Assembly (NCBI RefSeq): GCF_009914755.1 | Contig: NC_060925.1 | DNA from: the human T2T-CHM13v2.0 reference genome, Homo sapiens | Reading direction: 5' to 3' (one strand) | DNA length: 64,000 nt | Shown: positions 1,991 through 35,040 of the stretch, piece by piece | Layout: each line of letters opens with the position of its first letter | How positions within the stretch are numbered: position 1 is the first letter of the stretch | Position numbers and translations under genes: made by a program | The notes under the pieces: generated by a model | What the model saw: the letters and a program-made list of their open reading frames with translations, nothing else | What the model was told of the DNA's origin: nothing | Databases searched by the model: none

Positions 1991-2859
1991 GAAGGTGCTG
2001 ATGACCTCCTTTCTCTCCCCACAACACTCTTGCTTCACACATCAGCTTCCAGCACACTTTTCCTTTTATACCCCCAAATACCTAGTTTCTTCCTGCCTCA
2101 GGACTTTGGGATGTGCTGTCCTTTCCTTGGAAGTCTTCTCTCCTTGGGATAACTGGCTCTGAGCAAAGCATTCACCTACTTCAGGTGACTCCATCCCATA
2201 TTTGACATTCCCCATTGTACTTACTTCTTGAACCCGCCCTCCATAGCATGAACCCTCCCTGACTCTCCCCTGCAAAGGGGAGCTAACGAGACCACCTGTG
2301 ACCCCGACAATTTCCACCATTCTCTCTATTTTATTTGTGTGCATTTTATCCTTATTACAGTGTTGTCACCGTACCATGAGTCTTTAACTGTTAGGGCAAC
2401 TGGGAGTAGTTTCTGTCTCAGGATTACGAGGTCCTTGAGGCTGTTTAAATAAATTTATGATCTGTTTGATTTGCCTCACTTACATGTTACCATGGGTTTA
2501 CCCTCCTTAACTGTTTATTCCTCTATAAGATCATGGGGGCCTGAGTCTATTCCCCTAAATCAAGTGACTACATACATTCTATTTCTACTAACAAACCCTA
2601 ATAATTTACCTTCCCATCTAGGAAAATAGATTTTTCCTCTGATTAATATTGCCAGCTCAACAATGGGAAGATTTTCTCTTGGGGTCCCTAAGTTCTGTGA
2701 TACTGTCCTCCCCTCCCCCTGGAAAACCGGCTGCTTCACTGAAGTTGTTGAGGCCCTAATGTCCAGTTTTCTTAGATGATGACCTCAGAATTGATGGGTA
2801 AAGAGTGAAAAATGGGAGTTGTCCTACATTTCAAGAATAGAAAGACACACAACCATAAA

Positions 2860-3222
2860 AAAAGACAGTTTATAAACAACAGAGGTTTATTTGGCTCATG
2901 GTTCTGAAGGCTGTGAAGTCCAAGATTGAGGGGCTTCATCTGCTGAGGGCCTTCTTGCTGTGTCATTATATGGCAGAAGGCATCACATAATTAGAGAGCA
3001 TGTGCAAGAGAGAGGAAGAGGGGGATTCATTCACTTTTCTAACAAATCCAAACCATTTCTGTGATAACAAACTCACTTCTGTGATCGTGACCTTAATCCA
3101 TTCATGGGTCATAGAGCCCTGATGACCTAATCATCCCTTAAAAGTCCCACCTCTCAATACTGCTGCATTGAGGATTAAGCTTCCAACACATGAACTTTGG
3201 GGGACATGTTCAAATCCTAGCA
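2860..3222 (-). mobile_element. MST (MSTC/MSTD-like) MaLR LTR
   Basis: TTTATTTGGCTCATGGTTCTG...GTCCAAGATTGAGGGGC...CCAACACATGAACTTTGGGGGACATGTTCAAATCCTAGCA. Confidence 0.8.
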
Positions 3223-3239
3223 AGAGAAAACAGAAATGG

Positions 3240-3810
3240 AGGAAACTTGAATAGAGAGTTCACAGAAGATTGACAAATGGCACATAGGGACATGTAGAGG
3301 CACAATGTCATTAGTCATAAAAGATTCAAATTAAAGCCACAATGAAGTATTAAAACCATAAGGACACATACAAAATTAGCTTTTAAAACCCAGAAATACT
3401 AAATGTTGGCAAGAAACTGGATCACCCAGAACTCAGCTATGTTGGCTGCTGAGAAGGTAAAATGGTACAAGCACTTGGGAAAACTCTTAGGGTCTCCTAA
3501 AACTAATATACACCTACCCTATGATTCAGCAGTTCCCCTTCTGGTATGTATCTAAGGGAAATGAAAATATGTGTTTAAAAATTGCAACCTGTATATAAAT
3601 GTTCACAGTAGCCTAATTCATAAGATTCTCAAACCGGAAAAAATCCAAATGCCCACCTACAAGAGAATGGACAAGTTACAAGTTTATGCAAAAGAATACT
3701 ACTCAACACTGACAGGAATGAACTACTCATACATGCAACCTAGATGATTCTCACAGGTATTAAGCTGAGCAAAATGAAGATACCAGAGAATACATGCTCT
3801 GTGCTTCCCT
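3240..3810 (+). mobile_element. Old L1M fragment (ORF2 end/3' UTR)
   Basis: Degenerate L1 motifs CACCTACCCTATGATTCAGCAGTTCCCCTTCTGG, ATGTTCACAGTAGC, CCAAATGCCCA, GAATGAACTACT. Confidence 0.7.
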
Positions 3811-33628: not shown

Positions 33629-33994
33629 ATTAATTTATTAATTGCAACAATAAATTAATTAAATAATTAACCCTTCACCCAGCAGATGCCAGGCACTATC
33701 TGCAGAGGTCACACAAAGTCTCTGTGCACCAGTTCTCCCAGGCTAGAGGGGAGGGGGCCACACACAGAGAAAAATCACCAGAAGATTCTTCCTCATTACT
33801 AAGCATGTTGCCCAGTATCCAGGCCCTCATGAAGACTCTCATATACCTGGGACTCTCATGATGTCTTTATTTTGAATCACAAAGTGCTAAGACATGATCT
33901 CAGTCAATGCTGGTCTTGGGTGCTCCCAGAGGGTGTTCAATGGAATCAGTTGACACAAAAAAGAAAGAGGCAGAGGAATATAACCTATTATCAT

Positions 33995-34609
33995 TGTGGG
34001 CGGCAAGCTACTCTAGTGCTGCTTTTAAAAGTTTTTCTTTTAAATTCCTCAAAAATTTCAAAAAATCAGTAAAACACTACAGCACCAACTCTCCTTTTAT
34101 CTGTTCCACATTAAAAGCCCTAACAAAAAATAAACATTTAATGCCCTATAACTAAAAAATTTTAACAAAGTCAGTCTTATCTAAATCCCAATATTTACAA
34201 TTCAAAACTTAATAAGTTAATACTATCCAAAAACACATTCATCTTAATCAAAACTCTAATCCTCCAGTTAACGTTACAGTTAACCAGTTACTAAAAATAA
34301 GCCAATAAGCTACAATTCAAAACCAAACTATACTAAATAATAAAGTTATTAAACAACTACAAAAATATTACCTAAATAATTAAAATTAAATTCAAAATAA
34401 TAACAATATATACCCATCTTTTACAGCCATCAAACAAAAACAACATAAACTCTATTCAAACTTTATTACCCATCTCCAAAACACAACAGAAAAAAACTAT
34501 CCTTAATAGCCACAGCCAACAACTTATTATAAAATGTATAACTTATAAACAAACAAATCCAAACTGTCAAACAGCTACTCGCCCCGTTAAAAACAAAATT
34601 CCACCCACA
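33995..34609 (+). mobile_element. Highly deleted HERV-K-class (HML-6/LTR3-like) mini-provirus
   Basis: Begins TGTGGGCGGCAAGC, ends CCACCCACA (imperfect terminal inverted repeat, TG...CA); perfect TSD ATCAT at 33990-33994 and 34610-34614; interior is gag. Confidence 0.8.
34021..34606 (+). pseudogene. gag: G-to-A hypermutated betaretroviral gag capsid fragment
   Basis: Translation AFKSFSFKFLKNFKKSVKHYSTNSPF...MPYN*KILTKSVLSKSQYLQFKT**VN...NPPVNVTVNQLL...YPSFTAIKQKQHKLYSNFITHLQ..(+1 shift near 34490)..TYKQTNPNCQTATRPVKNKIP is colinear with HERV-K Gag CA (YGPNSPY..PYDWEILAKS.LS.SQFLQFKTWW..NPPVNI..DQLLG..PSF..VRQG..EPY.DFVARLQ..AYENANPECQ.AI.P.KGK.P). Confidence 0.92.
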
Positions 34610-34671
34610 ATCATGAGTGTTATCTGTAATTATTCCTGGTATATAGCCTCACAGTTTCAAGTGTCACATGC

Positions 34672-35040
34672 TGTATTATTCTGTTTTTATGCTGCTATAA
34701 AGGACTGCATGAGACTGGGTAATTTATAAAAGAAAGAGGTTTAGTCAACTCACAGTTCTGTATGGCTGGGAAGGCCTCAGGAAACTTACAATCACTGTGG
34801 AGGGGGAAGCAAACATATCCTTCTCCGCATGATGTCAGGAAGAAGAAGTGCCAAGCAAAAGGGGAAAAAGCCCCCATAAAACCATCAGATCTCAGGCGAA
34901 CTCACTATCATGAGAACAGCAGCATGAGGGTAACTGCCCCATGATTAGATTACCTCCCACTGAGTCCCTCCCACAACAAGTGGGGATTATGGGAACTACA
35001 ATTCAAGATGAGATTTGAGGGACACAGCCAAACCACATCA
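34672..35040 (-). mobile_element. Solo THE1D-like LTR
   Basis: TGTATTATTCTG...GACACAGCCAAACCACATCA; perfect TSD CATGC (34667-71, 35041-45). Confidence 0.92.

What the first reader, a model, noticed from the sequence alone, without database searches (positions are those of the whole stretch)
33990..34614. 615-bp integrated mini-provirus: LTR tips wrapped around a gag capsid fragment
Seen: the element starts TGTGGGCGGCAAGC at 33995, ends CCACCCACA at 34609, and is flanked by a perfect ATCAT duplication. Between the ends lies only ~590 bp of gag. No PBS, pro, pol, env, PPT, complete LTR or poly-A tail is visible. Knowledge (recalled): the first ~27 nt resemble the 5' end of LTR3 of HERV-K(HML-6), TGTGGGCGGCAAGCCACCCAGGTGCCG; TG...CA ends with a short TSD are the retroviral integrase signature. 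Inference: this is neither a solo LTR nor an L1-made processed copy. It may be an aberrant reverse-transcription or repair product in which two template jumps (U3 tip to gag, gag to U5 tip) kept just the att sites, and it was still integrated. The right junction (gag AAAATTCCACC merging into CCACCCACA) looks like microhomology. Annotation tools would probably see only a diverged gag or low-complexity DNA and miss the architecture.
Basis: partly seen in the sequence, partly recalled or inferred. Interest (0 to 1): 0.9.

Follow-up and report, generated by a model that had tools for sequence, protein, structure and literature searches.

The report
Hypermutated mosaic retroviral cDNA scrap, integrated
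A 615-base scrap of an ancient HERV-K-type virus, stitched from four pieces of the viral genome and almost stripped of its G bases by a host antiviral enzyme, was still pasted into chromosome 1 by the viral integrase, so it is a fossil of a derailed infection rather than a working element.

Summary
Window 33995-34609 (615 bp) starts TG, ends CA, and is flanked by ATCAT/ATCAT.

- **Capsid core.** The interior is betaretroviral gag capsid (Pfam Gag_p24 3e-23; HERV-K capsid structures 2e-34).
- **Left tip.** The first 14 nt are the exact 5' terminus of a ~1 kb LTR family. That 14-mer has 184 genomic hits against 0 for a reversed control. The same LTR flanks the proviruses that carry the closest gag copies.

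1. The element is near-saturated with APOBEC3-type G-to-A changes: 88-98 G>A against 2-6 A>G per comparison. The LTR tip is untouched.
2. Element nt 15-36 are not gag. They come from the integrase core of pol, which lies about 3.5 kb downstream of the gag piece in the provirus. The mosaic is therefore out of proviral order, and simple deletions cannot make it.
3. The family is probably HML-4/LTR13, not HML-6/LTR3. Only CACA lies beyond gag at the right end, while the native U5 end is TACA.

Best reading (core about 0.8): reverse transcription derailed under APOBEC3 pressure and made at least three microhomology-guided template switches. Integrase then inserted the product. I cannot tell whether it went in as a short cDNA (0.45) or is the solo remnant of a provirus with aberrant terminal repeats (0.35). 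Primate orthologues would decide.

The parts
33990..33994 (+). Left copy of the 5-bp target-site duplication (ATCAT)
   Evidence: It lies directly before the TG that is nt 1 of the LTR family.
33995..34008 (+). U3 tip: the first 14 nt of the ~1 kb LTR family, with none of its 7 G edited
   Evidence: 184 genomic hits against 0 for the control. 26 of 29 other loci are LTR starts. The same tip follows the PPT in the proviruses on C16, C19 and C8. If the tip had been edited like the gag part, the chance that all 7 G survive is 6.6e-6.
34009..34030 (+). Short piece of the pol integrase-core region (element nt 15-36), out of proviral order
   Evidence: It matches C16, C19 and C8 at proviral coordinates 6759, 6779 and 8190 with 1-2 substitutions. 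200 shuffles gave 0 hits. The C16 stretch is Pfam rve at 1.3e-18.
34028..34034 (+). Microhomology zone AAAGTTT, shared by the integrase piece and the gag piece
   Evidence: Side-by-side view of the integrase-gene and gag sources.
34028..34605 (+). Gag capsid fragment (CA N-terminal domain plus the start of the C-terminal domain), ultra-edited G-to-A, with 10 stops in the main reading frame
   Evidence: Pfam Gag_p24. PDB HERV-K capsid. BLAST to C16 provirus 2706-3280. 88-98 G>A against 2-6 A>G versus each of 7 copies. Stops listed.
34490..34490 (+). Approximate place of a 1-nt insertion (element nt 496) that shifts the gag frame
   Evidence: Gap found against C12, C19 and C1, which keep an open frame over this stretch. 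The frame change is also seen.
34606..34609 (+). Right tip CACA, the only bases beyond gag. Together with gag's CCACC it reads as the reverse complement of a U3-tip variant.
   Evidence: Gag homology ends at nt 611 in the copies compared. The native U5 end is CCCTACA. The U3 variant TGTGGGTGG occurs in both C19 LTRs and the C8 5' LTR.
34610..34614 (+). Right copy of the 5-bp target-site duplication (ATCAT)
   Evidence: No further viral piece is found in the flank.

Best explanation
This is the integrated product of a derailed reverse transcription of an HML-4-like (HERV-K13-type) betaretrovirus.

Its plus strand reads: U3 nt 1-14, then about 24 nt of the integrase gene, then about 575 nt of gag capsid, then CACA. 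At least three template switches at short microhomologies joined the pieces:
- U3 to integrase gene at GC, or GCTAC if the parent carried the T variant at LTR nt 15;
- integrase gene to gag at AAAGTTT;
- gag to right tip at CC.

The minus-strand DNA of the gag part stayed single-stranded long enough for APOBEC3 deaminases to change nearly every G in GG and GA context and over half of the others. The U3 tip escaped.

Because the molecule kept a TG...CA pair of ends, the viral integrase inserted it and made a 5-bp duplication.

I favour, narrowly, that it went in as a short cDNA. In that version the two tips are abortive initiation products of the plus-strand (PPT) primer and the minus-strand (tRNA) primer, which left their templates near the initiation pause sites and were joined through gag and pol.

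Shown: the mosaic, the junctions, the editing, the ends and the duplication. Inferred: the order of switches, which strand switched, and that integrase acted on a short molecule.

The core claim (mosaic made by the reverse transcriptase, insertion by integrase) has about 0.8. This specific version has 0.45.
For: 1. Exact LTR 5' terminus abutting the duplication.
2. The closest gag copies sit in proviruses bounded by that same LTR.
3. The order is non-collinear. The integrase-gene piece lies at proviral position ~6759 and the gag piece at 2706-3280, yet in the element the integrase piece comes first.
4. There is microhomology at all three junctions.
5. Editing is strand-specific and context-specific. 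Of parental G, 30-33 of 32-35 in GG context are changed, 30-32 of 32-34 in GA, 14-19 of 26-29 in GC and 13-17 of 23-28 in GT. A>G changes number only 2-6.
6. 0 of the 7 tip G are edited; joint survival would be 6.6e-6 if the tip had been treated like gag.
7. Weak-context editing is lower in element nt 23-120 (8 of 34, summed over 6 non-independent copies) than further right (0.47-0.89). This fits a minus strand whose 3' end lay at the left.
8. A 5-bp duplication occurs in this family: 3 of 14 exact duplications and the C19 provirus.
9. No second copy of the junctions exists among the 11 other gag matches.
10. Literature passages I read:
- Double template switches with microsimilarity make chimeric cDNAs in LTR elements (PMC5131818).
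- Non-homologous switching is at least 1000-fold rarer than homologous switching (PMC3187697).
- APOBEC3G hampers elongation and strand transfers and gives aberrant DNA ends (PMC3391693).
- HIV-1 RT pauses at +12 after the PPT primer and at +3/+5 after the tRNA primer (PMC3185700). These are close to the tip lengths seen here.
Against: - The right tip is minimal and imperfect. CACA matches the native TACA at 3 of 4, and none of the 24 family copies ends in CACA.
- Integrases are said to need 15-20 bp at each end (PMC5131818, passage). Here there are 14 bp at the left and at most 9 at the right.
- A short-cDNA route needs a plus-strand primer product made on a second template, and trimming of a single-stranded tail. 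No sequence here shows either.
- The pause-site data come from HIV-1, not from a betaretrovirus.
- Nothing in the human sequence separates this version from the solo-remnant version.
- The weak-context gradient rests on 5-7 sites per copy.
- My literature searches found no documented natural case of such a short integrant, so the prior is uncertain.
Confidence: 0.45

Rival explanations
1. Solo remnant. The same mosaic arose as an aberrant strong-stop DNA. The tRNA-primed minus strand left U5 after a few nucleotides, copied gag, then a bit of the integrase gene, and then landed at U3 nt 14. Synthesis then ran on normally, so the 615-bp unit was duplicated at both ends of a full-length, hypermutated provirus. 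Later recombination between the two units left one copy between the duplications, as happens to most HERV insertions.
For: - After the jumps it needs only standard steps.
- It leaves exactly the observed TG...CA unit with one duplication pair.
- Most copies of this LTR family are solitary: 14 of the 24 inspected carry exact duplications right at their own ends. Only about 12 proviruses of HML4 are listed (PMC4724089) and 11 gag loci were found.
- The editing boundary at the last jump is expected if the gag DNA waited single-stranded before that jump.
- From recall, not from any call: non-homologous strong-stop transfer giving abnormal LTRs has been produced experimentally with vectors.
Against: - The last jump could have landed anywhere in about 900 nt of U3-R, and the first could have left anywhere in U5-R. 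Both being at the very tips (14 nt and 4-6 nt) is unlikely, at roughly the 1e-3 level by my estimate. That figure is softened by the fact that the element was noticed because it is extreme.
- It needs a T-to-C change to turn TACA into CACA.
- No trace of the internal part remains in the window.
Confidence: 0.35
2. Post-integration rearrangement. A normal but hypermutated provirus was later reduced by two deletions, one of them with a templated insertion (polymerase-theta end joining or replication template switching).
For: - Microhomology at the junctions is also the mark of such repair.
- Short templated inserts copied from nearby DNA are known in that pathway (recall).
- LTR tips are the least edited part of hypermutated genomes (recall), so an unedited tip is compatible.
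Against: - Two independent events would each have to stop within 14 nt and 4 nt of the proviral ends without touching the flanks or the duplication.
- The inserted integrase-gene piece comes from about 3.5 kb away and is out of order.
- Selection by integrase explains the kept ends for free. Deletion does not.
Confidence: 0.08
3. Capture without integrase. A fragment of viral cDNA was ligated into a chromosome break, or copied in by L1 machinery, and the ATCAT repeat is a repair by-product or chance.
For: The right end has only 4 nt of possible LTR origin. A 5-bp repeat has a chance of about 1 in 1000 at a fixed place, and more if the right boundary is allowed to float by a few bases.
Against: - The left end is exactly nt 1 of the integrated LTR form, without the two extra bases of unintegrated DNA. 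The proviruses read PPT...GA|TG.
- The right end is CA.
- The duplication length fits the family.
- There is no poly-A tail and no L1-type target, and the duplication is shorter than L1's usual one.
Confidence: 0.04

Closest known systems
Ultra-edited endogenous retroviruses (Knisbacher & Levanon 2016, PMC4866542; section 8 read)
   Same: G-to-A changes form the majority of mismatches to unedited relatives, and GG/GA contexts are the most nearly saturated. The element meets their criterion of at least 25 G>A that are the majority of mismatches; it has 88-98.
   Different: The density is about 16 G>A per 100 bp, against about 9 per 100 bp for the most edited element they quote (392 in 4,304 bp). 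The edited DNA here is a mosaic scrap with an unedited LTR tip, not an ordinary LTR or provirus. Their supplementary lists were not seen, so I cannot say whether this locus is among their 44 human elements.
Solo LTR of HERV-K (HML-4/LTR13-type family)
   Same: TG...CA ends, a 5-6 bp duplication, and the same first 14 nt.
   Different: It lacks about 985 of the roughly 1000 nt of U3-R-U5. Gag and pol sequence fill the interior instead.
Chimeric retrocopies made by LTR-retroelement template switching (Tan et al. 2016, PMC5131818; passages read)
   Same: Several switches at short microsimilarities inside the particle, followed by integration with a short duplication.
   Different: Those chimeras keep both LTRs and carry host mRNA. 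Here all pieces are viral, the LTRs are reduced to tips, and the piece order is scrambled.
Defective, hypermutated or internally deleted proviruses of exogenous retroviruses such as HIV-1 (recalled; no paper read on this point)
   Same: APOBEC3 editing and deletions made by the reverse transcriptase arise in one infection cycle, and the products still integrate.
   Different: Those proviruses keep complete LTRs. A 615-bp integrant with 14-nt and 4-nt tips is, as far as my searches went, not described.

Membership tests
Integrase-made retroviral insertion | TG...CA termini | tested here: met
   The element starts TG at 33995 and ends CA at 34609.
Integrase-made retroviral insertion | Target-site duplication of the length typical for the virus group | tested here: met
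   ATCAT/ATCAT is 5 bp. In the family, 11 of 24 copies have an exact 6-bp duplication, 3 have 5 bp and 10 have none exact. The C19 provirus has 5 bp.
Integrase-made retroviral insertion | Both ends carry the cognate LTR termini | tested here: inconclusive
   Left: 14 of 14 nt. Right: only 4 nt lie beyond gag. They match the U5 end at 3 of 4. Read together with gag's CCACC, they match the reverse complement of a U3-tip variant at 9 of 9.
   This test is indirect, because no Dfam or Repbase copy was at hand. The family is about 930-1090 bp long and has about 160 or more copies: 184 hits, of which 26 of the 29 shown are family. That is more DNA than the 130,701 bp annotated as LTR3/3A/3B (PMC5142424).
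HERV-K(HML-4) / HERVK13-int with LTR13 | The gag's closest relatives are proviruses bounded by this LTR, and they map to known HML-4 loci | tested here: met
   The C16, C19 and C8 proviruses carry the LTR at both ends. The C16 locus (2.68-2.69 Mb) lies inside the 16p13.3 interval that holds ERVK13-1, 2,576,112-2,794,743 in hg18 (PMC6418362). That comparison crosses assemblies, so it is approximate. HML4 is listed with 7+5 proviruses (PMC4724089), and 11 gag loci were found here. Total LTR13/13A DNA of 545,702 bp fits.
Solo LTR | Complete U3-R-U5 | tested here: not met
   An LTR-to-LTR provirus matches the window only in gag. Only 14 nt of U3 are present.
Provirus (full or truncated) | PBS, PPT and collinear gag-pro-pol-env remnants | tested here: not met
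   No PBS or PPT is present. There are 575 nt of gag and about 24 nt of pol, in the wrong order.
APOBEC3 ultra-edited ERV | At least 25 G>A that are the majority of mismatches to an unedited relative, with a GG/GA preference | tested here: met
   88-98 G>A among roughly 134-180 mismatches per pair. GG and GA sites are 88-100% edited. The remaining G are followed by T (16), C (15), A (1) or G (3), and all 3 G-before-G cases lie in the tip.
L1-mediated processed insertion | Poly-A tail, TTTT/AA target, longer duplication | tested here: not met
   No A-tail sits at either end, the target is ...TTATCAT, and the duplication is 5 bp.

The most novel reading that the evidence does not exclude
The element is a frozen snapshot of restricted reverse transcription. 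The two tips are the abortive initiation products of the PPT-primed plus strand and the tRNA-primed minus strand, or of two PPT-primed strands, since the right end is a perfect inverted copy of a U3-tip variant. They were joined through gag and pol by serial template switching while APOBEC3 saturated the exposed minus strand. The resulting sub-kilobase cDNA, with only 14 bp and at most 9 bp of end sequence, was still integrated in the germ line in a concerted way. That would be natural in-vivo evidence for how little end sequence a betaretroviral integrase needs, and evidence that 'killed' infections can still write DNA into the genome.
Probability: 0.4. Interest if true: 0.75.

Novelty: new variant of a known kind. 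Interest (0 to 1): 0.6.

Why it matters
Each ingredient is known: APOBEC3 hypermutation, template switching at microhomology, and integrase duplications. I found no described case that combines them into a 615-bp, out-of-order mosaic with only the extreme LTR tips.

If it was inserted as a short molecule, three things follow:
- A heavily restricted and derailed reverse-transcription complex can still finish with a germ-line integration.
- It sets a natural lower bound on the end sequence that integrase tolerates.
- It suggests a class of tiny retroviral integrants that repeat annotation would file as diverged internal fragments or low-complexity DNA.

The sharp boundary between the unedited tip and the saturated interior also records which DNA was single-stranded, and for how long. 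The element itself has no sign of function: it has 10 stops in the main reading frame, a frameshift, and no promoter parts.

Tried and rejected
- **Left junction as diverged gag.** I first read element nt 15-36 as a poorly conserved stretch of gag. I dropped this when a degenerate search placed those bases in the integrase gene.
- **Paralogous empty site.** The left flank is single-copy (1 match, itself). The high-copy repeat on the right starts only about 50-75 nt after the duplication (2712 candidates, 40 scored). No paralogue can therefore show the uninterrupted target.
- **Other chimeric elements with the same tip.** Of the 184 hits, 11 deviate from the LTR at nt 15 or 16. They are the window itself, 6 ordinary LTR variants and 4 unrelated sequences. 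I inspected only 26 of the remaining 173, so later junctions could be missed.
- **A fourth viral piece in the flanks.** A sliding degenerate search of 33950-34012 and 34590-34660 against 7 proviral loci gave only gag, the U3 tip and purine-rich noise.
- **Locus tables for HML-4.** The files of PMC4724089 that should hold the locus tables are .xls and unreadable here. The family name therefore rests on indirect evidence.
- **Prior description.** Searches found none. The library lacks most subscription-journal papers, including the older vector studies that I only recall.
- **L1 or break capture, and plain deletion of a provirus.** I considered these and ranked them low, for the reasons given under rival explanations.

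Full report
**1. What is there**

Window 33995-34609 is a 615-nt insert. It begins TGTGGGCGGCAAGC, ends CCACCCACA, and lies between two copies of ATCAT at 33990-33994 and 34610-34614.

Its base make-up is abnormal. It has A 275, T 168, C 137 and G 35, while the window as a whole has 22.6% G. GC skew falls to between -0.4 and -0.9 exactly inside the insert and returns to normal at both borders.

**2. The interior is retroviral capsid**

I read the insert through with X at the stops. The main frame matches Pfam Gag_p24 at E 3.1e-23, residues 11-134 on profile positions 3-126 of 128. A second frame near the 3' end gives a weak Gag_p24_C match (E 0.04, 14.1 bits, below the 25.9-bit cut-off).

Against solved structures, 8 sequences match at E up to 1. 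The best are HERV-K capsid chains (32yy_A at 2.1e-34, 6ssj_A at 2.5e-34). The tryptophans of the capsid align with stops in the insert.

There are 10 stops in the main reading frame. One 1-nt insertion sits near element nt 496, relative to three copies that keep an open frame there.

**3. Relatives in the same genome**

The assembly holds 11 other matches, at 69-82% identity. The full-length ones cover element nt 23 or 34 to 610/611, and the rest are shorter pieces inside that span. None covers nt 1-22 or 612-615.

I fetched 14.5 kb around seven of them. The C16, C19 and C8 loci are proviruses of about 10.3-11.7 kb with a ~1 kb LTR at each end. C1, C12 and C9 have at least the 5' LTR.

Each LTR starts TGTGGG(C or T)GGCAAGCC right after a polypurine tract. 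Each ends ...GGTCCCTACA, followed by two bases and a lysine-tRNA-like primer-binding site.

**4. The left tip is a real LTR terminus**

The 14-mer occurs 184 times in the genome (89 forward, 95 reverse), and its reversed control occurs 0 times. Of the 29 other loci cut out, 26 belong to one family whose similarity begins exactly at the TG. The other 3 are unrelated.

Of those 26, 24 are 927-1087 bp long and 2 keep only about 100 bp. Nineteen of the 24 end CCCTACA, and none ends CACA. Eleven have an exact 6-bp duplication, 3 an exact 5-bp one, and 10 none exact.

It shares 17 nt with a variant seen in three LTR copies, L058, L061 and L063.

**5. Which family**

The evidence is indirect but consistent, and it points to HML-4 (HERVK13-int/LTR13) rather than HML-6/LTR3.
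- About 160 or more copies of ~1 kb exceed the 130,701 bp annotated as LTR3/3A/3B. They fit the 545,702 bp of LTR13/13A (PMC5142424, methods passage).
- The C16 provirus lies inside the 16p13.3 interval that contains ERVK13-1 (PMC6418362, passage). That comparison is hg18 against T2T, so it is approximate.
- HML4 is listed as HERVK13I/LTR13 with 7+5 proviruses (PMC4724089, table passage), against 11 gag loci here.
- I had no Dfam copy, and the paper's .xls supplementary files, which should hold the locus tables, could not be read.

**6. Hypermutation**

I compared the insert pairwise with each of seven copies and built no consensus. The gag part shows 88-98 G>A against 2-6 A>G, 10-22 C>T, 14-22 T>C and 11-36 transversions.

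Identity is 69-77%. It rises to 85-93% if G>A differences are ignored.

| Parental G followed by | Changed to A |
|---|---|
| G | 30-33 of 32-35 |
| A | 30-32 of 32-34 |
| C | 14-19 of 26-29 |
| T | 13-17 of 23-28 |

This is the minus-strand deamination signature of APOBEC3 enzymes. It meets the published 'ultra-edited' criterion (PMC4866542, section 8), and its density is higher than that of the record example quoted there.

The LTR tip is different. None of its 7 G is changed, including three in GG context. If the tip had been treated like gag, the joint chance of that is 6.6e-6.

Weak-context editing is also lower in element nt 23-120 (1 of 5 to 3 of 7 per copy) than further right. The numbers are small.

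**7. A hidden third piece**

Between the tip and gag, the alignment to gag is poor. A search that allowed A in the insert to be A or G in the source placed element nt 15-36 in pol. It matched at proviral coordinates 6759 (C16), 6779 (C19) and 8190 (C8), with 1-2 substitutions. In 200 shuffles there were 0 hits.

The C16 stretch translates without stops to an integrase-core sequence (Pfam rve 1.3e-18).

The insert is thus: U3 1-14, then the integrase gene (about 24 nt), then gag (C16 provirus 2706-3280), then CACA. In the provirus the integrase-gene piece lies about 3.5 kb downstream of the gag piece. In the insert it lies upstream. The order is scrambled.

**8. Junctions**

- U3 to integrase gene: GC is shared, or GCTAC if the parent had the T variant at LTR nt 15. 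One base, nt 18, fits neither source.
- Integrase gene to gag: AAAGTTT is shared, and one A of the run is missing.
- Gag to right tip: gag ends ...AAAATTCCACC in the copies viewed, and CACA follows.

The native U5 end would give TACA. The last 9 nt of the insert equal the reverse complement of the U3-tip variant TGTGGGTGG seen in C19 and C8. The right end may therefore be an inverted U3 tip rather than a U5 tip. One base cannot settle this.

No further viral piece lies in the flanks.

**9. Mechanism**

A scrambled mosaic with microhomology at every joint, one-strand deamination and exact integrase-type ends is best explained in three steps. The reverse transcriptase switched templates at least three times inside the particle. 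APOBEC3 acted on the exposed minus strand. Integrase then acted on whatever molecule carried two usable ends.

Passages I read support the individual steps:
- Microsimilarity-guided double switches occur in LTR elements (PMC5131818).
- Non-homologous switching is rare (PMC3187697), which would mean long waits as single-stranded DNA.
- APOBEC3G interferes with elongation and strand transfer and produces aberrant ends, and a zone near a DNA 3' end escapes deamination (PMC3391693).
- HIV-1 RT pauses at +12 after the PPT primer and at +3/+5 after the tRNA primer (PMC3185700).

Counting the two bases that integrase removes, the tips correspond to about +14 to +16 and +6 to +8. That is near those pauses. 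This is an analogy from HIV-1, not a measurement for this virus.

**10. Two end-states fit equally well in sequence**

(a) The 615-bp molecule was itself integrated. (b) The mosaic formed as an abnormal strong-stop DNA, was duplicated at both ends of a full-length provirus by otherwise normal synthesis, and later collapsed to a solo unit by recombination.

Version (a) explains why both tips are minimal, and, in the inverted-U3 variant, it predicts CACA exactly. Version (b) needs fewer unusual steps after the jumps and matches the usual fate of this family. I give 0.45 and 0.35.

Later deletion of a normal provirus (0.08) must explain two break points within 14 and 4 nt of the ends, plus an out-of-order insert. 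Capture without integrase (0.04) must explain processed TG/CA ends and the duplication.

**11. Limits**

- No primate orthologues or pangenome were available.
- The left flank is single-copy and the right-hand repeat starts too far away, so no paralogous empty site exists.
- Only part of the 184 tip matches were inspected.
- The family name is indirect.
- Older experimental papers on abnormal strand transfer are cited from recall only.
- Supplements of PMC4866542 were not seen, so this locus may already sit in a published list of edited elements.

**12. Verdict**

It needs important corrections: the family name, a 4-nt right tip, a third junction, extreme editing, and a viable solo-remnant alternative. 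It is a new variant of known processes, without function, and of moderate to high interest to retrovirologists as a natural record of restricted reverse transcription.

Noticed in passing
L045/L046 (G000:C1:237.33 Mb) and L049/L050 (G000:C12:56.46 Mb): Two related proviruses each have a normal 5' LTR and then a second, inverted full-length LTR about 0.4-0.5 kb downstream of the capsid piece. The same rearranged structure at two loci suggests either a duplicated locus or a transmitted rearranged variant.
   Followed up: no
G000:C17:44,177,022-44,192,973 (L005, L009, L010, L012): Four separate matches to the same capsid stretch lie within 16 kb on chromosome 17. In L005 an Alu-like sequence abuts the gag match directly at element nt 35.
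   Followed up: no
L025 and L026 (G000:C2:110.53 and 110.82 Mb): Two LTR copies have near-identical flanks and duplications, so they are probably part of one segmental duplication rather than two insertions.
   Followed up: no
L043-L056 proviruses: The 5'/3' LTR divergence is 2.3% (C16) and 2.6% (C19) but 8.0% (C8). Either the insertion ages differ a lot or LTR-LTR gene conversion has acted in the first two.
   Followed up: partly
window 34661-34809 and onward: A high-copy interspersed repeat begins about 50-75 nt downstream of the insert (2712 first-look candidates, 85-90% identity). I did not identify its family.
   Followed up: no
L016/L064, L027/L059, L032/L060, L062: Four genomic places carry the exact 14-mer with no LTR behind it. 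That is roughly what chance allows. I did not check whether any of them is another tip-only chimera.
   Followed up: partly
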